14,138 nucleotides of DNA from a virus (taxonomy: Duplodnaviria > Heunggongvirae > Uroviricota > Caudoviricetes): the IMG/VR virus record IMGVR_UViG_2690316152_000014; one strand, written 5' to 3'. Of this stretch, positions 701 to 10,700 are shown piece after piece. Each line of letters starts with the position of its first letter. Positions within the stretch are counted from its first letter, which is position 1. The position numbers and the translations under genes are program-made. The notes beneath the pieces were generated by a model. It did not search any database. It was not told the origin of the DNA and worked only from the letters and a program-made list of their open reading frames with translations.

Positions 701-1114
701 ATGAAAAAGATTATCGCTGGTATCGTTCTTGCTATGGGTTTGGTTGGTACTGCTAATGCTAATACCTATTATGTGTGTAATTCCTACTTCGAACATAAAG
801 GAGATGATACACGCTACCTGAGTGATGGCGACCGTTATTATCATGCACCGTCTGGAAAATACCGTGGTTTTATCGGTGTAAAGGTTCGAGTGAATGATGA
901 TAATAGTCAATTTGCTTTCAACGATCCGGTATTTGATAGAACAATCAAAAGCCCGAAACTGAAAGAAGATAAGAACGAGAAAGAAGAATATTATGGTTCC
1001 GAAGATGGTAAGTCTTACATCAAATATCTGCATTCTATAGATGGCGCTCCTATATTTGATGTTAAAAAAGGTGATACATCTTATACCCTGATTAGCTGCC
1101 GTGAAATTCTTTAA
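701..1114 (+). CDS. secreted/periplasmic protein of unknown function, with a cleavable signal peptide
   Basis: N-terminus MKKIIAGIVLAMGLVGTANA has an n-h-c signal-peptide layout and an A-N-A signal peptidase I site, with no lipobox. RBS AAGAGGA upstream. Two Cys in the mature part (CNSY and ISCREIL). Confidence 0.7.
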   Translation: MKKIIAGIVLAMGLVGTANANTYYVCNSYFEHKGDDTRYLSDGDRYYHAPSGKYRGFIGVKVRVNDDNSQFAFNDPVFDRTIKSPKLKEDKNEKEEYYGSEDGKSYIKYLHSIDGAPIFDVKKGDTSYTLISCREIL

Positions 1115-1129
1115 TCTTTAATCACCTAG

Positions 1130-1166
1130 CCCCTATCGTTATAATACACGGTAGGGGCGTTTTTGT
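1130..1166 (+). terminator. Rho-independent terminator candidate (loop holds a TATAAT hexamer)
   Basis: Stem CCCCTATCG/CGGTAGGGG (one G-U pair), 10-nt loop TTATAATACA, then CGTTTTTGTTT. Confidence 0.5.
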
Positions 1167-1177
1167 TTGGAAATGGT

Positions 1178-2860
1178 ATGAAAACTAAACTGTATTCGTA
1201 TATTCGCTTCTCTTCCATGAAGCAAGCAGATGGTAGTTCATTTGAACGCCAGAAGAGAACAGCGAAAGAGATAGCCGCAAAATATGATCTTGAGCTAGTT
1301 ACTTCCTATCAAGATTTCGGTGTATCTGCATTCAAAGGAGCTAACAGTAAAACAGGTGCATTATCTCGTTTTCTGGATGAGATTGGTCGATCCGTTCCGG
1401 TTGGTAGCTGGCTGGTGGTGGAAAACTTAGACCGTATCTCCCGTCAATCTGTTATTGAAGCTCAAGAGCTATTCCTTTCAATCATCCGCAGGGGAATAAC
1501 AATTGTTACTGGTATGGATGGGAAGGTCTATAGCAAAGAATCGGTTAATGCTAATCCCATCGATTTACTATTGAGTGTAATGTTGTTTGCTCGTGCAAAT
1601 GAGGAAAGTCAGACTAAACGCAATCGCACTAACTCAAGCGCACTACTCAAGGTTAAAGCCCATCAGGAGAATCCACAAAATCCGGCAGTGGCAATCGAGG
1701 AAATTGGTCGCAATATATGGTGGGCTGATACTTCATCGGGTTATGTGCTTCCACATCCGGTGTATTTTCCTGTTATCAAGAAAATCGTTGAATTAAAACA
1801 GAATGGTTATTCTAATGGTCGGGTTCTTGATTATCTGAATGAAAGAATCACCCCGCCTAATTACACAACGAACAAAGATACCCCTAAGAAATGGGCGCGT
1901 TCTATGTTAGCCAGGATGTTCTCTAACCGCGCTTTGCTTGGTATCAAAGAGATAACCATTGAAGGTGTGACATATGAGTTAAAGGATTATTACCCACGAG
2001 TGATGGAAGATGCCGAGTTCTATCAACTCAAGAAGACTATAGGACTGAGGTCGTTTTCTTATCCCACTAAGTCTAGTCCTGTTATTACCCTGTTAAGTGG
2101 TGCTGGCTTGCTTCGATGTGGTCATTGTGGGGCAAGTATGGTTAAGAGAAGCGGAGCATCAAAAGAGAGATTAGCCCAATATCGTTATATGTGCGATGGC
2201 GCAGATAGCAGGAGGACTAATTGTGATCATCCAAATTGGGGCTTTCGTGGTGATCAACTGGATAAGGCTGTATTGCAATTGCTGGCTGATAAAATCTGGA
2301 TTGCTGAGGATAAGGCTAATCCGATCCCAGGTATGCAAGCCCAGATTGAAGACATTTCACGCAAGATTGATAACCTGATTAGTCTTTCTGCAATGACAGG
2401 AGCAACGAAGGAACTAGCCGATCAGATTACTACCCTGAATCATGAGCGTGAGACCATCTATAACCAGATTAAGGTAATAGAAGAGAACATGTATTCAGTT
2501 GATTCTCAAGGCTGGGAGAAGCTAGCACAATTTGATTTAGAGGATGTTTGCAGCGAGGAACGGTTAAAAGTTCGATTGAAGATTAAAGAAGCTGTTAAGT
2601 CTATAAATTGTTACAAGATTGATACCAATTATAATCATTTTTTAATGGAGTACATCGACGGGAAGACACAAAGGATAGTGATCGAGAGGTCACGCCGTAA
2701 CAGGAAAGGGAGAATTTTTGTAGACGTGAAGACTATCAATGATAGGCAGATTCTGGAGAGCAACGGGCTTGTTCTGCATCCATGTTTAGACATGCTGACA
2801 GATAAGAACTGGAAACCGGAGGAAGAAATACCAGGTCCATTACAGGAATTTGGAATTTAA
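1178..2860 (+). CDS. large serine recombinase (probable phage integrase)
   Basis: N-terminal resolvase-type catalytic motifs: YIRFSSMKQ (catalytic Ser), SFERQ, and LVVENLDRISR. C-terminal zinc-ribbon cysteines (LLRCGHCG ... YMCDG ... NCDH) followed by coiled-coil-like sequence. Start set to the ATG at 1178; the track's 1163 is a TTG. Confidence 0.88.
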   Translation: MKTKLYSYIRFSSMKQADGSSFERQKRTAKEIAAKYDLELVTSYQDFGVSAFKGANSKTGALSRFLDEIGRSVPVGSWLVVENLDRISRQSVIEAQELFLSIIRRGITIVTGMDGKVYSKESVNANPIDLLLSVMLFARANEESQTKRNRTNSSALLKVKAHQENPQNPAVAIEEIGRNIWWADTSSGYVLPHPVYFPVIKKIVELKQNGYSNGRVLDYLNERITPPNYTTNKDTPKKWARSMLARMFSNRALLGIKEITIEGVTYELKDYYPRVMEDAEFYQLKKTIGLRSFSYPTKSSPVITLLSGAGLLRCGHCGASMVKRSGASKERLAQYRYMCDGADSRRTNCDHPNWGFRGDQLDKAVLQLLADKIWIAEDKANPIPGMQAQIEDISRKIDNLISLSAMTGATKELADQITTLNHERETIYNQIKVIEENMYSVDSQGWEKLAQFDLEDVCSEERLKVRLKIKEAVKSINCYKIDTNYNHFLMEYIDGKTQRIVIERSRRNRKGRIFVDVKTINDRQILESNGLVLHPCLDMLTDKNWKPEEEIPGPLQEFGI

Positions 2861-2929: not shown

Positions 2930-3925
2930 TTACGCGGCCTCTAAGGGGCTTAAATCAAGTTCTAGGTCTTCCGGTTCCAACTCGGCTAATGGCATTGAGT
3001 GCATCATAGCGAAATCACGTTCTATATCATCTTCGGTTATGTAGTCTTCTGGGTTGATTTCGAAATCAGCATCAAAATATATTGGTTCGGGCGAATTGTT
3101 ATAAATGTACTCCTGTATGAATTTTTTCACATCATCCATTTTGCTGATTGGTAAAGTTTCAGTATAACCACGAGACATTAATTTACGACTAATCCGCTTA
3201 CCTTTGATGTGTTTTTTGATGCCACTTTCTAAATCACCAGCTTTCCAGCCGCAATCAAACGTGTGTGAATATTCAAGGGATAATATTTCATCGGTGTATC
3301 TTTGAGTTTCATACATTCGACGTAGTGGATTTTTGCGCGTAGTTATACCAAATTTTAAAAATTTTTCTCCTACACGAAAAACATAAAAAATAACTGGTCG
3401 ATGTGTATCTTTGTTCATCAAAGCATGTTGTTTCCCGTTTGAAAGAGCAGTTATAGCGCCACGTATAAGAGGACAAGTTAAACTCCCCCGATTACGACTA
3501 CTAAACAAATCGGCTTTGTTGTATATTTTACCATGACAATTACATTTTAGTTTTAGATGGGTTGTTATTCCTCTGTATGGTTCGGCTAGCCCTAAAACAT
3601 CCCAGCCAATCTTATTAAAGAAATTGGTTGAAACTTGTATGTACTCATGTTCTGTATACATGCAAGGTTTCTTATATGTTGGGTGATGGTCTTTTCCTGT
3701 AAACTTACCCATTAAGACACGTTGTAATAAAGGAGTTTTAACTTTATCGCCAACTTTTATATAAACTTTTGTTCGCTGGAATGGCTTATGGATAGGTAGA
3801 ACGAATCCCCCATAAATCCATCCATTAGATTTACATTGGTCAACAACCATTGATTCATATTCAGATGGGCTTTTAGCCGTTGATTTTTTGATGAAAGGAA
3901 TATCTTTAGCAAAAACGGTTTTCAT
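2930..3925 (-). CDS. Cys-rich GIY-YIG-like (T5orf172-like) putative homing endonuclease, paralog A
   Basis: ATG at 3925 with GAGGA RBS. Segment VIFYVFRVGEKFLKFGITT resembles a GIY-x(10)-YIG signature. Cys/His clusters upstream (LKLKCNCHG, LTCPL). Acidic C-terminal tail. Clearly paralogous to the 5053-6090 protein (shared WIYGGFVLP/LIYHGFVMP, KFGIT/KYGIT, GYTET). Confidence 0.55.
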   Translation of the reverse strand: MKTVFAKDIPFIKKSTAKSPSEYESMVVDQCKSNGWIYGGFVLPIHKPFQRTKVYIKVGDKVKTPLLQRVLMGKFTGKDHHPTYKKPCMYTEHEYIQVSTNFFNKIGWDVLGLAEPYRGITTHLKLKCNCHGKIYNKADLFSSRNRGSLTCPLIRGAITALSNGKQHALMNKDTHRPVIFYVFRVGEKFLKFGITTRKNPLRRMYETQRYTDEILSLEYSHTFDCGWKAGDLESGIKKHIKGKRISRKLMSRGYTETLPISKMDDVKKFIQEYIYNNSPEPIYFDADFEINPEDYITEDDIERDFAMMHSMPLAELEPEDLELDLSPLEAA

Positions 3926-3996
3926 AATAGCGAATCCTCATAAATTAAATTCACTATTATTTATTAGTATTTTTCTTGATAATAAAGATTGTTATT

Positions 3997-4668
3997 ATGT
4001 GTGATATTAAAATTAGCTTCATCAATTATAGCCATGTGAAAATTGATTATTCTCCTTCCATTGCAATGGAATTGAGAGATTATTTTAGCTTTGAAGTGGA
4101 AGGAGCCAGATTTAGTCCCAGATACAAATATTCGGGCTGGGATGGTCGTATTAGACTTTTTACCTATGAAAATTTGATGCCTATTGGCTTAGTTCGAATG
4201 GTTAGCGTGTTTTCAAAAAATATGGGTTATAGTGTTTTGATAGACCCTAGACTTTTGGAGCGGGAAAATGTCGATGAAAAGGAAATCGAAAAATGGTGCA
4301 ATGTCCTAGAATTATATTCTGGTGCTAACAGAGTTACCCCGCACTGGTATCAATCAAAAGCAGTCTTTGAAGGTATTCATCATAAACGTAGAATGTTAGT
4401 TCTTCCTACGTCCGCTGGCAAATCTGCTATCGCTTGTATGTTATCTCGTTGGTACTTAGAGAACTACGAAGGCAAAGTGTTGATCATTGTCCCGACGACC
4501 TCGCTTGTTCTCCAGATGCGGGATGATTTTGTTGATTATCGCCAGTTTCCTTATGAAGCTATTCATACTATCATGAGCGGTACTAGTAAGCATGTAGGGG
4601 ATCGCCTGATTGTTGTCAGTACATGGCAATCCGCTTGTAAACAGCCTCGTGAATGGTTTAAACAATAA
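3997..4668 (+). CDS. uvsW: UvsW-like SF2 DNA helicase, N-terminal fragment (223 aa), stops just before motif II; likely a gene remnant
   Basis: Collinear with the T4 UvsW N-terminus as recalled from memory: N-terminal domain, PHWYQ, Walker A LPTSAGKS, YLENYEGKVLIIVPTT, and WQS..KQPREWF. The ORF stops immediately before the expected DECH box. Start set to ATG 3997 (the track's 3976 is TTG). Confidence 0.7.
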   Translation: MCDIKISFINYSHVKIDYSPSIAMELRDYFSFEVEGARFSPRYKYSGWDGRIRLFTYENLMPIGLVRMVSVFSKNMGYSVLIDPRLLERENVDEKEIEKWCNVLELYSGANRVTPHWYQSKAVFEGIHHKRRMLVLPTSAGKSAIACMLSRWYLENYEGKVLIIVPTTSLVLQMRDDFVDYRQFPYEAIHTIMSGTSKHVGDRLIVVSTWQSACKQPREWFKQ

Positions 4669-4697
4669 AAAAGCGCCTACTATGAGGCGCTTTAATT
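4669..4697. terminator. bidirectional hairpin terminator between convergent genes
   Basis: AAAAAAGCGCCT-ACTATG-AGGCGCTTTAATTTTA: GC-rich stem flanked by an A-run and a T-run, between the uvsW fragment stop and the peptidase stop. Confidence 0.55.
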
Positions 4698-5051
4698 TTA
4701 TCCATACCAGCGGGATTTAGTGGAACGGCTATCAATATGGGTAAAGGTTTTATATTTGCCTAAGCCATATTGATTAGGATATTTGCTATCTAGATACGCG
4801 TGAACAATATCAGGCGAGACACCTTTCACTACAATATCTGCGGCCTTGCCCGTGATATGAATCGAACGAGAAGCACCACCAACTTTCTTATTGTGTGCCG
4901 GACAACGGTTAGCACTGTTAATAACTACTGGTTTCCCGAAGTGTTCGCGTACATCCTCAAGAATTGCCAGTAATTCCGCGTCTACGGTATCTTGTCCGCA
5001 CTTTCCACATTTGCATTCAAATTCCTTGCGAGAAAAATGTTTGCTTAACAT
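4698..5051 (-). CDS. peptidase M15-family protein (zinc D-Ala-D-Ala carboxypeptidase-like); possible cell-wall hydrolase
   Basis: Motifs SANRCPAHNKKVGGASRSIH, GKAADI and FTHID fit the H...D...H zinc site of M15 peptidases. N-terminal CKCGKC cluster. Start is 1 nt after the stop of the upstream paralog-B gene, with a GGGGG SD. Confidence 0.6.
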   Translation of the reverse strand: MLSKHFSRKEFECKCGKCGQDTVDAELLAILEDVREHFGKPVVINSANRCPAHNKKVGGASRSIHITGKAADIVVKGVSPDIVHAYLDSKYPNQYGLGKYKTFTHIDSRSTKSRWYG

Positions 5052-5052
5052 A

Positions 5053-6090
5053 TTACCCCCTATATGTAATTTTATAGTTGTTGGAGTTTTTACAAAAATC
5101 CATTGCCATTTTTCTAATCTGCGCTTCTTTGGTTATGTCACATGTTTCTGTATATCCGTCTGGGATTAGTTCTTTTGGTGCAGCGTGACTTCCTATGTTA
5201 TGTTTTACGGAATATTCTAGGTCATTGGCAACTTTTCCGTCACCGAAAGTTATATACCACAATAACTTGTGAGATAATCCTGACTCTCTTGATTGTTGTG
5301 TGATTCTCTTTTGTGGGTTTAGGTGATTTGTTATTCCATATTTGATATAATCGCCTACTTGCTGGACATAGAAAACACCTGGTTTACTTTTGTTATACCC
5401 ACTCTTAGAACAGCACGGACAACCATCGTTTTCGTAAACCAAACCATACGCAACAATAGTATCTGATATATGGCCTTTTTCACACTTTAGTTTTAGTTTT
5501 GACATAGCCAAAATTGGGGATTTAGGTCGTTTTATTAATTTGAGTCTCTTTTCTTTGCACCCGTCTTCAATTAATCCCAACCATTCGTCGTCTGTGTGCT
5601 TTCTCTTATTAATTCCTCTCTTAATTGACCCACAATGACGGCACCCAGCATCATTGTTTATGATTCTTGTGATTATCGTTTCGTATGTGGTGTTACAACA
5701 AGTGCATTTATATGATGCCTTTGTATCAAGCCCTTTATATTCTTCCAACAAACCAACTAAAACCATCTCTTTACGTTCTAATACATTGCTTGCTTTGGTG
5801 AGAATGGTTTCTTCGTCTCTATTATTTTTCTTTGGTAGTTTTAAAGAATCTCTATAACATTCAATACAAGCACCTTGTTTCTTAAGGGATTTGAATACTA
5901 TCGTTCTTGATGTGTTGTGTTTTTTGCAAGTTACATAAACGTGTGTATATTGACCTTTCCACGGCATGACGAAGCCATGATAAATCAAACCTAATTCACC
6001 ACATCGTTTAATTGCAATTGTTTCATAGTCGTGCGGAGTTTTTCTTTTGAATCCGGTGTAATCGATATATTCAGCAAATAAAACTTCCAT
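5053..6090 (-). CDS. Cys-rich GIY-YIG-like (T5orf172-like) putative homing endonuclease, paralog B
   Basis: Three Cys-rich modules (KRCG..VTCKKH..CIEC; KCTCC..GCRHCG; LKCEKGH..GCPCC), then GVFYVQQVGDYIKYGIT (GIY-YIG-like) and DGYTET. GGGGGA SD upstream of ATG 6090. Confidence 0.55.
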   Translation of the reverse strand: MEVLFAEYIDYTGFKRKTPHDYETIAIKRCGELGLIYHGFVMPWKGQYTHVYVTCKKHNTSRTIVFKSLKKQGACIECYRDSLKLPKKNNRDEETILTKASNVLERKEMVLVGLLEEYKGLDTKASYKCTCCNTTYETIITRIINNDAGCRHCGSIKRGINKRKHTDDEWLGLIEDGCKEKRLKLIKRPKSPILAMSKLKLKCEKGHISDTIVAYGLVYENDGCPCCSKSGYNKSKPGVFYVQQVGDYIKYGITNHLNPQKRITQQSRESGLSHKLLWYITFGDGKVANDLEYSVKHNIGSHAAPKELIPDGYTETCDITKEAQIRKMAMDFCKNSNNYKITYRG

Positions 6091-6100
6091 TAGTCCCCCA

Positions 6101-6128
6101 AATAAAAAAGCGACCGAAATTGGTCGCT
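6101..6128 (-). terminator. Rho-independent terminator ending the post-J cassette
   Basis: On the minus strand: stem AGCGACC/GGTCGCT with loop AATTTC, followed by TTTTTTATTT. Confidence 0.6.
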
Positions 6129-6142
6129 TGTATTTATTCGAG

Positions 6143-6490
6143 TTAAATGTATTGTAGAAGATACCCGGTAAAGCGGAGTCCCTTGATATAGTAGTTAGTA
6201 GTGCCTAGACATACCGCTCGTGTATCGCCAATACAATTGAAGTTGTAAGGATTAACTACATCAATCTCCTGCCCTACACGAAAGCGATACTTAGGACGTT
6301 TAGCGAGTGTCGCAACACAAAACACTAGCCCGTTACCATCATCGCGGATCATCTGCTTGAATTGTTTATGTTGGACTCTCTTCGCCTCAAAATCATAGGT
6401 CATTGATTCAGGGCTAATGCCATTGATAAAAATACCGGAAAGCTGATCGACCGGATAAGTAGGAAATTCAGTGAAAATATTTTTAGCCAT
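6143..6490 (-). CDS. hypothetical protein (115 aa)
   Basis: ORF with a GGGGG SD 7 nt upstream of ATG 6490. Last gene before the terminator. No motif recognised. Confidence 0.55.
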   Translation of the reverse strand: MAKNIFTEFPTYPVDQLSGIFINGISPESMTYDFEAKRVQHKQFKQMIRDDGNGLVFCVATLAKRPKYRFRVGQEIDVVNPYNFNCIGDTRAVCLGTTNYYIKGLRFTGYLLQYI

Positions 6491-6529
6491 GTTATACCCC
6501 CCATAAGTTTCTATGAGGGTATTTATGGA

Positions 6530-7213
6530 TTAAACGTATTTCATGCGTGATTTAATGTGCTTATTGATATGTTCAAGCATCATTACTTCGTTGCTTTCCC
6601 ACGATCCTAGCGTCGAATAACGAGTAGAAATTTTATCCGACTTAACGGCAACAATTCGCTTACTCTGTTTCTGTGTGCGTTTCTCTAAGCGACGTTTTGC
6701 CACCGCCGATCCATTCTTAGCGCGTTTGGTTCGGGATTTCTTAGGCTTGTACTTCTTCATGATAAAAGTCCCTTCCTGGTTCTCTACCTTGATGAAGTTG
6801 CCGTTTTCGATGTTACGCATCATCTTACCGCCTTTGATGGCCTTAATGTTCCCGTGAGAGTCTAAGACCTTACCGTTAGCGATTGGCACTAGCTTATTGA
6901 TTTTGCCACCATCGAAATAGTGTTTCAGATAGTCGTCCTGACTGCCGATCTTCTTGTCCTTATCCCTTGCTCCCTTGATGAAGATTTGGTGTCTGGTCCC
7001 TGATCGGTTCTTGTAGTTGGTATTGCCTACCGCTTGCTGAGTCCATCGAGTAGGTCTATCAACATTCTTGTTAATCTTCTTCTGGAGTGCTCTGGAAGCA
7101 AAGATCGCCCCTTCCCCTATCGCCTTTTCGAATGTATCGGTTGCCTTATCAGTCCATTGGCGTAACGCTTTCTTAGTCCTTAGAGCGTTTCGTTTATTGG
7201 TACTGATTGACAT
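6530..7213 (-). CDS. hypothetical highly basic protein (227 aa, Lys/Arg-rich)
   Basis: GGGGGG SD. Start is 1 nt after the stop of the 56-aa ORF. Long K/R-rich stretches (KKYKPKKSRTKRAKN, KRRLEKRTQKQSKR) suggest nucleic-acid binding or a virion-internal role. Confidence 0.6.
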   Translation of the reverse strand: MSISTNKRNALRTKKALRQWTDKATDTFEKAIGEGAIFASRALQKKINKNVDRPTRWTQQAVGNTNYKNRSGTRHQIFIKGARDKDKKIGSQDDYLKHYFDGGKINKLVPIANGKVLDSHGNIKAIKGGKMMRNIENGNFIKVENQEGTFIMKKYKPKKSRTKRAKNGSAVAKRRLEKRTQKQSKRIVAVKSDKISTRYSTLGSWESNEVMMLEHINKHIKSRMKYV

Positions 7214-7214
7214 A

Positions 7215-7385
7215 TTACCCCCCTAATAACGAAAAGACCCCCGCTAGTGTCCTGAGTAATTGTTCATCCACGGTCATAGCCGGGAGTTCAAGCCCAAAGG
7301 ACGTAAGCAGAGGTCTAATAGCTACGTTATAAGTGAGGGCGATAATCAAGAGATAACCAAAATATTTCTTAAGTCTATTCTTCAT
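7215..7385 (-). CDS. small membrane protein (56 aa, MKNRLKKYFGYLLIIALTYNVAIRPLLTSFGLELPAMTVDEQLLRTLAGVFSLLGG), not in the ORF track
   Basis: ATG at 7385 preceded by GGGGTG at about 6 nt. Hydrophobic helix YFGYLLIIALTY. Ends GGG-GGG-TAA, and that stop is coupled to the start of the 227-aa gene. Confidence 0.4.
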   Translation of the reverse strand: MKNRLKKYFGYLLIIALTYNVAIRPLLTSFGLELPAMTVDEQLLRTLAGVFSLLGG

Positions 7386-7405
7386 ATATTCACCCCTTTT
7401 TATTA

Positions 7406-7684
7406 TTATTTTTGTTTGAGTATGTCGAGAACTTGGTCAAATTTAGCATCCATCGCAACCACTTTTTTCTCTATGCCGTGTAGTGTTTGTTCCATTTGGT
7501 AAACACGTTCAGCAATCTGAGTATGGTTGTTCTGCATCGTCTCAAACTTCTGGTTTAACAATGCGTCGCTGGATTCCAATTTAGATAACCTATTTTCAGT
7601 TGCTATTTGATTTCGGTGAAGTCTCCAAAGACCACCACAAATTAAGGCGATAACACCGATACCGCCATATATAATTTCAGTCAT
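7406..7684 (-). CDS. membrane-anchored coiled-coil protein (92 aa); function unknown
   Basis: N-terminal helix IIYGGIGVIALICGGLW, then heptad-like sequence rich in Q/E/K/L. GGGGGCG SD 4 nt upstream of ATG 7684. Confidence 0.55.
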   Translation of the reverse strand: MTEIIYGGIGVIALICGGLWRLHRNQIATENRLSKLESSDALLNQKFETMQNNHTQIAERVYQMEQTLHGIEKKVVAMDAKFDQVLDILKQK

Positions 7685-7726
7685 TACGCCCCCGATATTT
7701 TTATAATTTAATGGCAGAATTATTTA

Positions 7727-7769
7727 GATAAAAATAATCCCGCCTAATCACAAAGTATTAAGCGGGATT
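7727..7769 (-). terminator. hairpin terminator candidate downstream of the J-like gene
   Basis: On the minus strand: AATCCCGCTTAA ... TTAGGCGGGATT stem-loop followed by ATTTTTATC. The long loop lowers confidence. Confidence 0.35.
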
Positions 7770-7787
7770 TATTATTAAATTAAATTG

Positions 7788-10700
7788 TTAACGAATAGAA
7801 ATACCAGAAGTGGCTTTTTTAGCGACCATCACAACAACATCGGTCGCACTACCCGATCTACGGGTTGAAACAGGCCATGCTTTAAACTCTAAAGTCACGC
7901 TACCCTTACCCGCTGGCATGTCTATAACGCTACTGTATGCAATAGGTATTGGTCCGCCTGATTCTAATGCTTTCAGTAAAGTACCATTTTTACGCACTTC
8001 TAAACGCATACGGCTATACCCGGTTCTGCCCGGATTATCACCAGTTCCTGCAATATCGTATTCAGCGCCAGCAACAATAATTGGCGGAATGATGATTTGA
8101 CGGTCAAATTTATGGTCATCATTGATCGTTACGGTAACAGCACCATCAGGAACACCAGCATCACCTAAAGTAGCAGCACCACGAGGAAACGCCTTAGATA
8201 CAGTCTTAACAAAATCACCGCGTACCTGAGTAGCTTCTAACATACCCTTAATAACACAGGATTCGTTAATCGTGACGTTGTTCAGAGTACCGGAATCAGC
8301 CGTGATATTACCTTTGATTTTGGCATTCATGAACGTAGCGGACCCGTTCTTGTTGATATGCCATCCGGTAGATCCGTTCCAGTTGGAAGACTGGATATAG
8401 TTACCGATTTTAGCGTTATCAATTGCACCGTTTACAATCTTGGCGTTAGTGATCGCCCCGTCCTGAATCTTCGCGCTATTAATTGCAGCATTGCCGATTT
8501 TAGCCGTGGTGATTGCCGCATCAGTAATCTGGGCTGTGCCGATTGAGGCATTACGGATCATGGACCAGTCCATATACACCTTGTTTCCTTCGACACCAAA
8601 CGGAACAACACCCGCCGCGCCATCCTGTGGAGCTACCACCAGCTTATCAGCCGTAAAGATGATTTTAGTCGGTTGTGCCGGATCGTTAGTTGCGCTCATG
8701 TGAATACCAGCCACACGACCATCTGCATTAACTGCAAGATTGTATTTGCTGTTAATGGTTCCCTTCAAAGCATCGATCTTAACGTCCGCTTCTTGGTTAA
8801 CACCAGCAATCTTGCCATCCATTTCTACCCGAACTTGATCAATCTTACTTGCGCTTGCTGCCTCACTGGTTGCAATTGCTTGTTTCAGGGTAGTAGCAGA
8901 TGCGCTAACTTCTTTGGTGATATCACCTTTCAATTCAGCTTTAACCTGATCAATCTTAGTGGAGCTAGCTTGATCACCAGAGACAATCAGACTCTTAAGA
9001 GTATCGGCTGAGGCTTGGACCGTCTGTCCTGTTTCAGTAGTGATTTGCTTGTGCATTGCATCAATTTTAGCATCGGCATTTTCGCCAGCTTGAGCAATAG
9101 CATCAGCGATAGTTTCATCTAAGCGATCTTGTAAACCAATCAGGTCTTCCAGTGCTTCTTTGTCCTGATCTTCCCAACTAATCGAAGATTTCATAGACAT
9201 GAAATACGGTTCAGACCAGACAGCATCATCCATGCCGAAAATATCGTAGTGAGCACCACGGATATAATAATCACCATCAGCCAAATCAAAGGAAGTATGG
9301 CTAACACTATTCGTGCTTACTGCCCTTGCATCGGAGAAAGTGTTATCGGTTGCATACTGGATGATTGACCCTGCATAGTCATGTTCTACGTCATCTGTCC
9401 AGCTAACAAACGCAGTATTAAAGCCACCACGCGCACTAAAACCTTTCATCGGCTTATGCTGTGGGTTGATAGCCACTAAACGCGCTGGGGCGCTCTCTGA
9501 GTTGTTATATCCTTTAACCGATACTTCCACCGTCAGTTGACGCGAAAGGCCGTTAAACTGGTTCATATCAAGCGTATAAGTCCATGATTCAGGATCGCGG
9601 GTACGGTACTGAATAGACTTACCAGCCTTGTTAGTAACCTTGATAATGTATGCTTCAAACAGGTCACTAAACTTGTTAGCTTCGCCGTTGATCATCACAT
9701 CTAAGCCTTGCTGGTTATCCCATTCGATAATCAGATCATTACCTTCGAAAGTGCCAGCCGTGCTACCCTGATTTTTGATTCGAATAGTCGGAGTCGGCAA
9801 TTCATAGGTAACAGTAGGATTCTGGTTAATCAGTTCTACCCAATCGGATCGCGCGATGATACCGAAAGCACAAATACGGTAATCGTAAGAACGATCTTTA
9901 GCCAGTGCATTGACATTGAAGATTTGCTGTGAAGTCTGACCCAGCTTAATCCAGTTAGGTGATCCGCTTACACGATAATCAATCTGGAAACCATAACGGT
10001 TAAAATCTTCCGGTGCATCCCATGTCAAAGTAACGTTTTTACCGTAAATCGTCTCGCCAGTTGCCTTAATTCTGAAATTAGTAGGCTTCTGTACTGTCAT
10101 TGAATCCGGTAAACCACTTGGTCTATTGTCTGGAGTTGCCGCATAGTTCAGGTCAGTATAAACCTGAGAATTATATTCTGTAGCGGTGATAGTCATCATC
10201 CCAGCAATACCAGAATCAATCGAGCGATCAATTGCGGTAATACGCCATAAAGAATTATTCAGTTTTAATTCATCATAGGTTACGCTAATAACATCCCATA
10301 CTTCGGCAGTGAATGCGTCAGTAGTCATAAAGCTGATAACCTGAGTGATACGAGATTTATTTCGTTCAATGCTCGCTAGTTTATCAATCTGGTCTTTAGA
10401 CTTAACGAAACGATATTCTACATCCTTAGCAATAATTCGACCATCTGCGCGAACAGTAGCATCGTTTTCAGCATCAGCCGGATAACGTAGCATTTGCTCC
10501 GAATAGTCGATTGATGGTTCTTGATATACCGCGTTAATGGTATTGAAATAACCGTTAGTACCACCAGTTTTAAGGGATACTTTACCCATCATAATATTGT
10601 CTTCATTGAAGGTATGCTTAACAATATCAGGAGCATCCAGTTTCAGAGTAATTCTTCCGAAGGATTCGAACATTACCCCGCCGAAAGTCTGCATTAATCC

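What the first reader, a model, noticed from the sequence alone, without database searches (positions are those of the whole stretch)
4698..6090. Endonuclease-like gene translationally coupled to an M15 peptidase
Paralog B ends ...TAT AGG GGG TAA, and the M15 peptidase ATG follows 1 nt later, so the upstream gene's last codons double as the downstream SD. A predicted nuclease coupled to a peptidoglycan-peptidase-like gene is an unusual pairing. The peptidase lacks an obvious signal peptide, and a holin was not identified next to it.
Basis: partly seen in the sequence, partly recalled or inferred. Interest (0 to 1): 0.5.

Follow-up and report, generated by a model that had tools for sequence, protein, structure and literature searches.

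The report
Homing endonuclease inserted before prophage endolysin
A selfish, mobile nuclease gene has landed in the ten-base gap just upstream of an E. coli prophage's cell-wall-cutting lysis enzyme, so the tight "coupling" of the two genes reflects where it landed, not a working partnership; this is an ordinary, well-known kind of event.

Summary
On the minus strand the 345-aa ORF (5053-6090) ends ...TAT AGG GGG TAA, and one base later the 117-aa ORF (4698-5051) starts.

Both annotations hold.
- The 117-aa protein is a Peptidase_M15_3 / LAS-fold zinc peptidase. Its H65, D72 and H105 ligands are intact, and it is 62-65% identical to annotated phage endolysins.
- The 345-aa protein has three CapR/DUF723-type zinc-finger modules and a C-terminal GIY-YIG-fold (T5orf172/MUG113-like) nuclease domain.

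The pairing is not a functional unit. In 55 complete E. coli genomes carrying this prophage family, only 3 have the nuclease gene. In the others checked, the peptidase directly follows a 115-aa gene through the spacer TAA-GGGGG(G)-TAAT-ATG.

The nuclease gene is a precise 1081-nt insertion into that spacer. It carries its own hairpin and Shine-Dalgarno (SD) sequence. Its reading frame runs into the peptidase's pre-existing SD and stops at a TAA that was already there.

The identical cassette, plus about 25 nt of the peptidase 5' end, occurs in different prophage backgrounds. Homologues sit in assorted intergenic sites of T4-like Krischvirus phages.

Verdict: a free-standing homing-endonuclease gene, a new member of a known kind. 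A side observation may be more interesting: the neighbouring interval holds further such genes around a captured T4-like uvsW fragment.

The parts
5062..6142 (-). Inserted mobile cassette of 1081 nt (boundaries +/-1 nt). It consists of a 52-nt leader with a hairpin and its own SD, plus the nuclease ORF up to codon 343. It is absent from most sister prophages.
   Evidence: In MAFFT alignments of occupied and empty sites, a single 1081-column gap starts right after the TAA of the 115-aa gene and ends right before (A)GGGGGTAATATG. 3 of 55 genomes are occupied.
5053..6090 (-). 'Paralog B': a 345-aa free-standing homing-endonuclease-like gene. It has three CapR/DUF723-type Zn-finger modules (about aa 19-84, 93-157, 167-230) and a C-terminal GIY-YIG-fold nuclease domain (about aa 236-335). 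The last two codons and the stop (5061-5053) are native host-site sequence.
6097..6142 (-). Leader hairpin of the cassette. The upper stem (6129-6108) followed by a T-run looks like an intrinsic terminator. The lower stem pairs CUC just after the upstream stop codon with three G's of the nuclease gene's SD (GGGGG at 6099-6095).
   Evidence: The terminator scan finds it. RNAfold gives -19 to -23 kcal/mol, with the same architecture in three alleles that are about 80% identical. Terminators and RBS-sequestering hairpins are described for T4 free-standing endonuclease genes (PMC2988022).
5052..5061 (-). Native spacer of the endolysin gene: the SD AGGGGG, then TAAT, before the ATG. The in-frame TAA (5055-5053) terminates the nuclease ORF.
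   Evidence: The same string (A/G)GGGGG-TAAT-ATG directly follows the stop of the 115-aa gene in empty sites L002, L003, L004 and L021.
4698..5051 (-). 117-aa Peptidase_M15_3 (LAS-fold Zn peptidase), the probable endolysin and last gene of the late operon. Its first 25 nt or so (5051 to about 5028) belong to the tract that travels with the cassette.
   Evidence: Pfam PF08291 1e-29, 103 bits, full profile. phrog_894 endolysin 1e-44. 62-65% identity to annotated endolysins of Autographiviridae. Invariant H65, D72, H105, D107. A family profile hits the 1LBU zinc motif at 2.4e-6. AF2 pLDDT 96.8, and Foldseek finds 1LBU, ChiX, VanY, Ply500, LysECD7 and T5 endolysin. The chimeric 5' end is shown.
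4670..4693 (.). Bidirectional terminator-like hairpin. It closes the late operon on the minus strand and the helicase fragment on the plus strand.
   Evidence: conserved in sister prophages.
6143..6490 (-). 115-aa gene of unknown function. It is the native upstream neighbour of the endolysin gene in cassette-free prophages.
   Evidence: No Pfam, PHROG, NCBIfam or PADLOC hit.
7406..7684 (-). 92-aa protein with one N-terminal transmembrane segment (aa about 4-22) and a coiled-coil-like tail. It is a holin or i-spanin candidate (inference only).
   Evidence: Hydropathy 1.77. No family assignment. Conserved in position after the tail-tip gene in all relatives.
7215..7385 (-). 56-aa protein with one borderline hydrophobic segment (aa about 9-30). 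It is a second small membrane-protein candidate for the lysis cassette (inference only).
   Evidence: conserved in relatives.
2930..3925 (-). 'Paralog A': a 331-aa second nuclease gene of the same family, 25% identical to paralog B. It lies between the serine recombinase gene and the helicase fragment.
   Evidence: BLASTP 4e-15. phrog_681 5e-19. Its best phage hits are the endonuclease gene between uvsW and uvsW.1 of the Krischvirus phages Whisky and JK32.
3997..4668 (+). 223-aa N-terminal fragment of a UvsW-type helicase with T4-like (Krischvirus-like) sequence. This is context for the cluster of nuclease genes and not part of the nuclease/peptidase junction.
   Evidence: Pfam UvsW_N 1e-33. 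78% nt identity over 664 nt to JK32 uvsW, and 85-89% over the last 380-450 nt to many RB49-like phages. tblastn 83% over aa 1-223.

Best explanation
The 345-aa gene is a free-standing homing endonuclease gene (HEG) of the CapR/DUF723 zinc-finger plus T5orf172-like GIY-YIG type. It sits inside the late operon of a temperate E. coli prophage.

Shown:
- A 1081-nt cassette is inserted precisely into the 9-10-nt spacer between a 115-aa gene and the endolysin gene (a Peptidase_M15_3 enzyme).
- The cassette brings a leader hairpin, its own SD and the ORF.
- The ORF has no stop of its own inside the cassette. It reads through the endolysin's pre-existing SD (AGG GGG) and ends at the TAA that already lay between that SD and the ATG. 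The 'translational coupling' is therefore a by-product of the landing site.
- The endolysin was already coupled in the same way to the 115-aa gene.

Inferred mechanism:
- The three zinc-finger modules recognise a long DNA site in cassette-free alleles near this junction.
- The GIY-YIG domain makes a double-strand break.
- Repair from a cassette-bearing copy, during co-residence or co-infection of related phages, copies in the cassette together with a short flank. That flank includes about 25 nt of the endolysin 5' end.
- The leader hairpin (terminator-like stem plus partial SD sequestration) keeps nuclease expression low, as in T4 seg/mob genes.
- The endolysin is translated from its own strong SD and presumably works with a holin encoded elsewhere. 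The candidates are the 92-aa and 56-aa membrane proteins three and four genes upstream in this window.
For: 1. Junction and native spacer.

2. Presence/absence polymorphism at one fixed site:
- 3 of 55 complete E. coli genomes are occupied.
- 33 show the two flanking genes about 778 bp apart, which is the empty state.
- The remaining rows are unresolved by megablast. The one inspected (PI7) is empty.
- Empty loci L002, L003, L004 and L021 are documented.

3. Spread across backgrounds:
- The identical 345-aa protein occurs in 22 contigs, always at this site.
- The backgrounds differ: truncated helicase plus paralog A, or full-length helicase plus a 391-aa nuclease. Other alleles occur with no helicase module at all.
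- Window versus L011 has zero mismatches from about 6200 to 5000. Identity then falls to 90% in the rest of the endolysin gene.
- Against the closest empty relative, L021, the first 21 nt of the endolysin gene cannot be aligned. After that, identity is about 96%.
- At protein level, the N-terminus MLSKHFSR is of the P0159/L002 type and the remainder is of the P0155/L003 type.

4. Nuclease identity:
- CapR domain above the Pfam cutoff and phrog_681.
- 1424 family representatives at E<=1e-3.
- Invariant Y241, K250, G252, R262, E292, E315.
- Family members hit MUG113 and T5orf172.

5. Homologues lie in unrelated intergenic sites of Krischvirus phages: gp2/gp3, gp32/frd and uvsW/uvsW.1.

6. Three alleles with intact ORFs have dN/dS of 0.09-0.15, so the protein is under selection.

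7. One copy is split by IS2 while the endolysin gene is untouched.

8. Literature:
- T5orf172 HEGs carry repeated CapR/DUF723 Zn-finger domains. They are mostly free-standing and cluster beside essential phage genes (PMC10448857).
- T4 free-standing HEGs sit in intergenic regions, co-convert flanks, and are damped by terminators and RBS hairpins (PMC2988022).
Against: - No cleavage or homing has been measured, and the target site is unknown.
- Three alleles that differ by dS of about 0.25-1.2 all sit at the same site, and all are under strong purifying selection. Residence this long fits recurrent homing, but it would also fit a gene kept because it benefits the prophage.
- Some empty alleles (L002/L004 type) already carry the same endolysin 5' sequence as occupied alleles. 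The 'co-conversion tract' therefore rests on comparison with the L003/L021 type only.
- A terminator-like hairpin placed upstream of the lysis gene looks costly. No internal promoter above chance was found.
Confidence: 0.85

Rival explanations
1. A domesticated homing-endonuclease derivative. The protein is retained because it serves the prophage, either as a CapR-like DNA-binding regulator of late or lysis genes, or as a nuclease aimed at competing or superinfecting phages. Its position before the endolysin gene ties its expression to the late operon.
For: - CapR homology domain. PLE CapR is a domesticated relative that acts as a repressor (PMC8096241, listed; PMC10448857).
- dN/dS is about 0.1 in both the DNA-binding and nuclease parts, across alleles separated by dS of about 1, all at the same site.
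- The same prophage family carries up to four genes of this family next to a T4-like uvsW segment.
Against: - All residues invariant in the nuclease family are kept, which argues against a pure repressor.
- Most sister prophages lack the gene, and one carries it broken by IS2, so it is dispensable.
- There are no PADLOC hits.
- Purifying selection is also expected for an actively homing endonuclease.
Confidence: 0.1
2. A true two-gene functional module. In this view the nuclease and the peptidase are co-translated because they act together, for example as a lysis-associated nuclease or a toxin pair.
For: - The stop codon, SD and start codon overlap.
- The pair recurs in about 25 contigs or genomes.
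Against: - The same SD-TAAT-ATG string couples the peptidase to a different gene in cassette-free prophages.
- Only 3 of 55 genomes have the nuclease.
- Close endolysin homologues in lytic phages have no such neighbour.
- Nuclease homologues sit beside unrelated genes.
- The IS2-disrupted copy has an intact peptidase gene.
Confidence: 0.02
3. An ordinary resident gene that was lost. In this view the 345-aa gene was ancestral to the prophage family and has been deleted in most lineages, so no homing is involved.
For: The alleles are about as diverged (dS 0.9-1.2) as the flanking genes.
Against: - Empty sites in at least two divergent allele types are scar-free and identical to the base at the junction.
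- The identical cassette, with 100% identical short flanks, sits in backgrounds whose adjacent sequence is only 90% identical.
- The family's scattered, intergenic, presence/absence distribution in Krischvirus phages is typical of mobile HEGs.
Confidence: 0.03

Closest known systems
T5orf172-type homing endonucleases with CapR/DUF723/DUF4397 zinc-finger DNA-binding repeats (Vibrio phage ICP1, T5-like, Plateaulakevirus and other phages; Barth et al. 2023, PMC10448857)
   Same: The architecture matches: repeated Zn-finger modules followed by a C-terminal GIY-YIG-superfamily nuclease domain. The gene is free-standing, sits beside an essential late gene, and several copies occur per genome in 'HEG island'-like clusters.
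   Different: It is carried by a temperate E. coli prophage, and its closest phage homologues are in T4-like Krischvirus. The protein itself falls below Pfam thresholds for T5orf172 and MUG113. No activity has been tested.
Phage T4 seg genes, which are free-standing GIY-YIG homing endonucleases (for example segE at inh/uvsW and segG at 32/59; Edgell, Gibb and Belfort 2010, PMC2988022)
   Same: Shared features are intergenic insertion between conserved genes, a presence/absence polymorphism between relatives, co-conversion of short flanks, and a terminator or RBS hairpin that damps expression.
   Different: Seg proteins have the GIY-YIG domain at the N-terminus and different DNA-binding modules (my own knowledge). 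Here the nuclease domain is C-terminal, behind three zinc-finger modules. The host element is a prophage, not a virulent phage.
CapR of Vibrio cholerae PLE satellites (Netter et al. 2021, PMC8096241)
   Same: It shares the CapR homology (CxxC zinc-finger) DNA-binding domain.
   Different: CapR is described as a domesticated endonuclease that acts as a capsid-operon repressor. Paralog B keeps every residue that is invariant in the nuclease family and behaves as a mobile insertion.
Single-domain Peptidase_M15_3 endolysins of Autographiviridae (Pectobacterium phage PP1, Proteus phage Pm5460/BigMira, Salmonella phage BP12B, Citrobacter phage CrRp3), and LAS-fold enzymes (1LBU D-Ala-D-Ala carboxypeptidase, ChiX, T5 endolysin, LysECD7)
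   Same: The 117-aa protein has the same length, 62-65% identity, and the H-x6-D...H zinc motif. It has a LAS fold and no signal peptide.
   Different: It lies at the end of the tail operon of a temperate prophage, with no adjacent recognised holin. In BigMira, two small genes annotated as holins follow the endolysin gene directly. Bond specificity is untested.

Membership tests
Free-standing homing endonuclease gene (GIY-YIG superfamily, T5orf172/MUG113-like branch) | GIY-YIG-type nuclease fold with the conserved Tyr, Arg and Glu core | tested here: met
Free-standing homing endonuclease gene (GIY-YIG superfamily, T5orf172/MUG113-like branch) | Match to the Pfam T5orf172 (PF10544) or MUG113 (PF13455) model at the curated threshold | tested here: not met
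   The C-terminal domain alone scores MUG113 E 0.075, 14.1 bits, against a cutoff of 22.3, and has no T5orf172 hit. Among 42 family members, 16 hit MUG113 (best 1e-5) and 6 hit T5orf172 (best 9e-4). The protein is therefore a divergent branch, placed by fold and by family linkage rather than by its own HMM score.
Free-standing homing endonuclease gene (GIY-YIG superfamily, T5orf172/MUG113-like branch) | Modular DNA-binding region (CapR/DUF723-type Zn fingers, repeated) | tested here: met
   CapR PF21817 scores 30.4 bits against a cutoff of 24.2, in two stretches. Three repeats with the pattern GF..G..TK...C....GC..C appear in the family consensus. 37 of 42 members hit CapR, 18 hit DUF4379 and 11 hit DUF723.
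Free-standing homing endonuclease gene (GIY-YIG superfamily, T5orf172/MUG113-like branch) | Presence/absence polymorphism at one fixed site between otherwise homologous genomes, with precise boundaries | tested here: met
   3 of 55 genomes are occupied. The insertion is 1081 nt with base-precise, scar-free boundaries. The gene is always at the same site in 22 + 2 contigs.
Free-standing homing endonuclease gene (GIY-YIG superfamily, T5orf172/MUG113-like branch) | Co-conversion of flanking sequence with the element | tested here: inconclusive
   The endolysin 5' end (about 25-45 nt) travels with the cassette, and identity then drops to 90% or switches allele type. However, some empty alleles share that 5' sequence, and the left boundary is not sharp.
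Free-standing homing endonuclease gene (GIY-YIG superfamily, T5orf172/MUG113-like branch) | Site-specific cleavage of the element-free allele, and biased inheritance (homing) | not testable with these tools
   This needs cleavage assays and phage or prophage crosses.
Peptidase_M15_3 / LAS-fold zinc peptidase acting as phage endolysin | Pfam PF08291 match above the gathering score over the whole domain | tested here: met
   E 1e-29, 103.3 bits against a cutoff of 23.2, covering profile positions 1-108 of 108.
Peptidase_M15_3 / LAS-fold zinc peptidase acting as phage endolysin | Zinc ligands H-x6-D and a distal His | tested here: met
   H65, D72 and H105 (plus D107) are invariant in 29-35 homologues. 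H65 and D72 align to the GGASNSRH...AAD motif of 1LBU. That these 1LBU residues are the zinc ligands is my own knowledge.
Peptidase_M15_3 / LAS-fold zinc peptidase acting as phage endolysin | LAS fold | tested here: met
   AF2 pLDDT 96.8. Foldseek finds 1LBU at E 2.7e-4 (probability 1.00), then ChiX, VanY, Ply500, LysECD7, T5 endolysin and Hedgehog N-domains.
Peptidase_M15_3 / LAS-fold zinc peptidase acting as phage endolysin | Role in host lysis (holin-dependent murein degradation) | not testable with these tools
   The support is indirect. phrog_894 'endolysin' scores 1e-44. The protein is 62-65% identical to annotated endolysins. It is the only gene annotated as a peptidoglycan-active enzyme in a complete sister prophage. 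It has no signal peptide. The holin is not identified; only membrane-protein candidates exist.
Translationally coupled gene pair | Stop of the upstream ORF within a few nt of the downstream start, with the SD inside the upstream ORF | tested here: met
   TAA-T-ATG, with AGGGGG as the last two sense codons.
Translationally coupled gene pair | Downstream translation depends on upstream translation | not testable with these tools
   This needs reporter fusions with premature stops. By inference it is unlikely to be required. The SD is strong and predates the insertion, and the nuclease gene's own SD is partly sequestered.

The most novel reading that the evidence does not exclude
The interval between the serine recombinase gene and the endolysin gene of this temperate prophage family is a homing-endonuclease island. 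It trades DNA with virulent T4-like (Krischvirus) phages.
- It holds up to four CapR/GIY-YIG-type nuclease genes, including paralog B.
- These surround a captured uvsW(-uvsY) segment that is 78-89% identical at nucleotide level to Krischvirus.

In this reading the nucleases are maintained (dN/dS about 0.1) because they act in inter-phage conflict. They would cut superinfecting T4-like phages or rival prophage alleles, and use the shared uvsW or late-operon homology to spread or to exclude markers. Paralog B would then be more than a passive parasite of the endolysin locus.
Probability: 0.15. Interest if true: 0.6.

Novelty: new member of a known kind. Interest (0 to 1): 0.25.

Why it matters
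- It explains an apparently odd operon pairing as a mobile-element insertion, a caution against reading function from adjacency.
- It documents base-precise anatomy of a CapR/T5orf172-like homing endonuclease cassette in a temperate coliphage. The anatomy comprises the leader hairpin, the borrowed stop codon and the short co-converted flank.
- Natural occupied and empty alleles are available for direct cleavage and homing tests of a little-studied nuclease family.
- The neighbouring T4-like uvsW fragment, flanked by related nuclease genes, hints at gene flow between virulent T4-like phages and prophages mediated by such elements. If confirmed, that would be of wider interest for phage evolution and inter-phage competition.

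Tried and rejected
- Nucleotide search (blastn) of the two-gene region against 50,697 phage records found no match. Only protein-level relatives exist.
- Sequence search of paralog B against PDB found nothing meaningful, only an antibody light chain at E 0.23.
- NCBIfam gave no useful hits for either nuclease or for the small neighbours.
- PADLOC gave no defence-system model for the nucleases, the peptidase or the neighbours. The helicase gave only generic helicase hits. A known defence system was therefore rejected.
- Rfam at gathering thresholds over the whole window gave no RNA family.
- The promoter scan of 3900-7800 found 13 sites against 11.9 expected, so no claim is made for an internal promoter feeding the endolysin gene.
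- For the holin search, the 92-aa and 56-aa proteins match no holin or spanin family, and only hydropathy supports them. A 94-aa protein with three hydrophobic segments exists in the sister prophage of strain STEC1575, but about 30 kb away in the early region.
- The 66-aa ORF that overlaps the endolysin stop in L001 was considered as a holin. It was rejected because it is a remnant of a paralog-A-like C-terminus.
- Antisense ORFs on the plus strand of 4698-6090 (47-92 aa) have no support and were ignored.
Full report
**What the window is.** The window matches an E. coli draft genome contig (GCA_040034705.1) at 99.97% over 12 kb. It is the right end of a temperate prophage.
- On the plus strand there is a large serine recombinase gene (1163-2860; Resolvase, Recombinase and Zn_ribbon_recom domains).
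- On the minus strand there is a late operon of tail genes. It has a tape-measure C-terminus, DUF2163/DUF6950-type genes and a 1259-aa tail-tip protein.
- These are followed by five or six small genes, and the last of them is the 117-aa peptidase.
- Sister prophages sit in hicB or ycdX of other E. coli strains.

**Check of the observation.** On the minus strand the 345-aa ORF (5053-6090) ends ACA TAT AGG GGG TAA. One base later comes the ATG of the 117-aa ORF (4698-5051). The description is exact. The spacing is not exceptional for this operon. The 56-aa/227-aa junction has the same stop-1 nt-ATG layout, and several tail genes overlap by one base.

**The 117-aa protein.**
- It matches Pfam Peptidase_M15_3 over the whole profile (E 1e-29, 103 bits against a cutoff of 23) and PHROG 894 'endolysin' (1e-44).
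- In alignments of 29-35 homologues, H65, D72, H105 and D107 are invariant.
- H65 and D72 align with the GGASNSRH..AAD zinc motif of the Streptomyces D-Ala-D-Ala carboxypeptidase 1LBU.
- An AlphaFold model (pLDDT 96.8) retrieves LAS-fold enzymes: 1LBU, ChiX, VanY, Ply500, LysECD7 and T5 endolysin.
- Its nearest relatives in sequenced phages (62-65% identity, same length) are annotated endolysins of Autographiviridae. In Proteus phage BigMira, two small genes annotated as holins follow the endolysin gene.
- It has no hydrophobic segment.
- In a complete sister prophage it is the only gene annotated as a peptidoglycan-active enzyme.

I conclude that it is the prophage endolysin. Its bond specificity and lysis role are inferred, not tested.

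**The 345-aa protein.**
- Pfam finds a CapR homology domain above threshold, and PHROG 681 'endonuclease' scores 1e-42.
- An exhaustive HMMER search finds 1424 cluster representatives at E<=1e-3.
- Aligned members show three repeats of a CxxC zinc-finger module and a conserved C-terminal domain. Y241, K250, G252, R262, E292 and E315 are invariant.
- Members hit CapR (37/42), DUF4379 (18), MUG113 (16), DUF723 (11) and T5orf172 (6).
- The query's own C-terminal domain stays below threshold (MUG113 E 0.075).
- This is the architecture described for T5orf172-type homing endonucleases, which have repeated CapR/DUF723 zinc fingers (PMC10448857).

**Why the two genes are adjacent.** A megablast of 4669-6530 against 5,426 complete E. 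coli genomes finds the locus in 55 of them.
- 3 contain the nuclease gene.
- 33 show the 115-aa gene and the peptidase gene about 778 bp apart, which is the empty state.
- 1 is partial.
- 18 match only the 115-aa gene, because their peptidase allele is too diverged for megablast. The one inspected (PI7) is also empty.

Alignments of occupied sites (window, L001, L008, L011, L012, L016, L017) and empty sites (L002, L003, L004, L021) show a single 1081-nt gap.
- Empty sites read ...TAA (stop of the 115-aa gene) - GGGGG(G) - TAAT - ATG (peptidase).
- Occupied sites read ...TAA - [CTCGAAT...ACATAT] - AGGGGG - TAAT - ATG.

The peptidase's SD, the TAAT and the ATG therefore predate the nuclease gene. 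The nuclease ORF has no stop inside the inserted segment and terminates at the TAA of the native spacer. The 'coupling' is inherited from the 115-aa gene/peptidase junction.

**Evidence that the insertion is mobile.**
- The identical 345-aa protein is found in 22 contigs, always at this site. The backgrounds differ: a truncated helicase plus paralog A, or a full-length 496-aa helicase plus 185/189-aa and 391-aa CapR-family proteins.
- Other alleles (81-83% amino-acid identity) occupy the same site in prophages with a full helicase module, or with no helicase module at all.
- Between the window and L011 there is not a single mismatch from about 6200 to 5000. The rest of the peptidase gene is only 90% identical.
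- Against the nearest empty relative, L021, the first 21 nt of the peptidase gene cannot be aligned. From 5030 downward, identity is about 96%.
- At protein level the window's peptidase starts MLSKHFSR, like the L001/L002 type. It continues like the L003/P0155 type, which starts MISRYF(K/R)R.
- This looks like a short co-conversion tract. I rate it as suggestive because L002-type empty alleles carry the same 5' sequence.
- Homologues in Krischvirus (RB49-like) phages lie between gp2 and gp3, between gp32 and frd, and between uvsW and uvsW.1. This scattered intergenic pattern is typical of free-standing homing endonuclease genes (PMC2988022).
- One E. coli copy is split by IS2 while the peptidase gene is untouched.

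**Regulatory anatomy of the cassette.** The 52-nt leader folds (-19 to -23 kcal/mol, three alleles) into a GC-rich stem followed by a T-run. An extended lower stem pairs the CUC just after the upstream stop with three G's of the nuclease gene's SD. Terminators and RBS-sequestering hairpins are known devices that keep T4 mobE, segB, segF and I-TevI expression low. I infer the same role here. Whether the hairpin lowers endolysin transcription is unknown, and no internal promoter stands out above chance.

**Selection.** Pairwise dN/dS between the three nuclease alleles is 0.09-0.15 in both domains, with dS up to about 1.2. This is similar to the peptidase gene. The protein is therefore functional and old at this site. 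That is compatible with continued homing among prophage alleles. It also leaves room for a benefit to the prophage, which is the rival reading given 0.10.

**Holin question.** Nothing adjacent matches a holin or spanin family. Directly after the tail-tip gene, and conserved in all relatives, lie two small membrane-protein candidates.
- One is a 92-aa protein with an N-terminal transmembrane segment and a coiled-coil-like tail (7406-7684).
- The other is a 56-aa protein with a borderline hydrophobic segment (7215-7385).

These remain untested.

**Comparison with known systems.** Paralog B works like, and by architecture belongs with, the CapR/T5orf172-type homing endonucleases. In behaviour it parallels the T4 seg genes. 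It fails its own Pfam T5orf172/MUG113 threshold, so I file it as a divergent member supported by fold, conserved residues and family linkage. Cleavage and homing are untested. The peptidase is an ordinary M15_3 endolysin.

**Side observation.** The interval between the recombinase and peptidase genes is itself a cluster of such nuclease genes around T4-like DNA.
- The 223-aa helicase fragment (3997-4668) is 78% identical at nucleotide level to Krischvirus JK32 uvsW, and 85-89% identical over its last 380-450 nt to many RB49-like phages. It is only about 71% identical to the full-length helicase of sister prophages.
- One sister prophage also retains a piece of Krischvirus-like uvsY.
- Paralog A's best phage hits are the endonuclease gene next to uvsW in Whisky and JK32.
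- In T4, segE sits beside uvsW and cuts it.

This suggests endonuclease-associated exchange between virulent T4-like phages and a temperate prophage. I could not test that further.

Noticed in passing
window 3997-4668 (+): A 223-aa N-terminal fragment of a UvsW-type helicase, lacking motif II onward. It is 78% identical at nucleotide level over 664 nt to Krischvirus JK32 uvsW, and 85-89% identical over its last 380-450 nt to many RB49-like phages. It is only about 71% identical to the full-length 496-aa helicase of sister prophages. About 818 nt of the 3' part are deleted, with the junction at the shared terminator.
   Followed up: partly
L017 3005-3293 (sister prophage, between the endolysin and helicase genes): A stretch 78% identical at nucleotide level to the 3' end of Krischvirus uvsY plus the neighbouring small ORF (tblastn 87.5% over UvsY aa 72-135). 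The prophage family therefore carries a T4-like uvsW...uvsY segment.
   Followed up: partly
window 2930-3925 (-): Paralog A (331 aa) lies between the recombinase gene and the helicase fragment. Its best phage hits are the endonuclease gene between uvsW and uvsW.1 of Krischvirus Whisky and JK32. Sister prophages have a 391-aa GIY-YIG-annotated gene or a NUMOD3 protein at the same place, so this is a hot spot for nuclease genes. It is reminiscent of T4 segE at inh/uvsW.
   Followed up: partly
window 1163-2860 (+), and the outer flanks in L001, L002, L004, L007, L010, L014, L023: Large serine recombinase alleles (74-85% nt identity) go with different integration sites. These are hicB (L001, L002, L004) and ycdX (L007, L023). 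In the window's own lineage, the prophage end abuts a 301-aa cytosine/purine permease fragment followed by a 427-aa amidohydrolase, which looks like codBA.
   Followed up: no
window 6101-6135 and 4664-4698: The hairpin in the nuclease cassette leader shares an exact 12-mer (AATAAAAAAGCG on the plus strand) and 71% of 35 nt with the operon terminator after the endolysin gene. This could be convergence of terminators or a hint about the cassette's origin (repeat D1).
   Followed up: no
L022 684-3057 (E. coli HCP5S3_I4): The nuclease gene at the same site is split into 175-aa and 184-aa pieces by an IS2 insertion, while the endolysin gene is intact.
   Followed up: yes
L001 9201-9398 (-): The annotated 66-aa 'hypothetical protein' that overlaps the endolysin stop ends EPEDLELDLSQL, like the C-terminus of paralog A. 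It is a remnant of a deleted nuclease gene, not a lysis gene.
   Followed up: yes
window 701-1114 (+): A 137-aa protein with a signal-peptide-like N-terminus (MKKIIAGIVLAMGLVGTANA) lies next to the recombinase gene at the prophage end. It has no family hit and may be a lysogenic-conversion or 'moron' gene.
   Followed up: no
window 6530-7213 (-) and 6143-6490 (-): A very basic 227-aa protein (55 K+R against 19 D+E; weak phrog_1924 'minor tail protein' hit, E 0.003) and a 115-aa protein with no hit lie between the membrane-protein genes and the endolysin gene. Their role in tail or lysis is unknown. The 227-aa gene varies in length (199-227 aa) among relatives.
   Followed up: no
L007 13046-13330 (+) (sister prophage of strain STEC1575): A 94-aa protein with three hydrophobic segments sits in the early region, about 30 kb from the endolysin gene. 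It resembles a class I holin in topology only, and it lies outside the region covered by the window.
   Followed up: no
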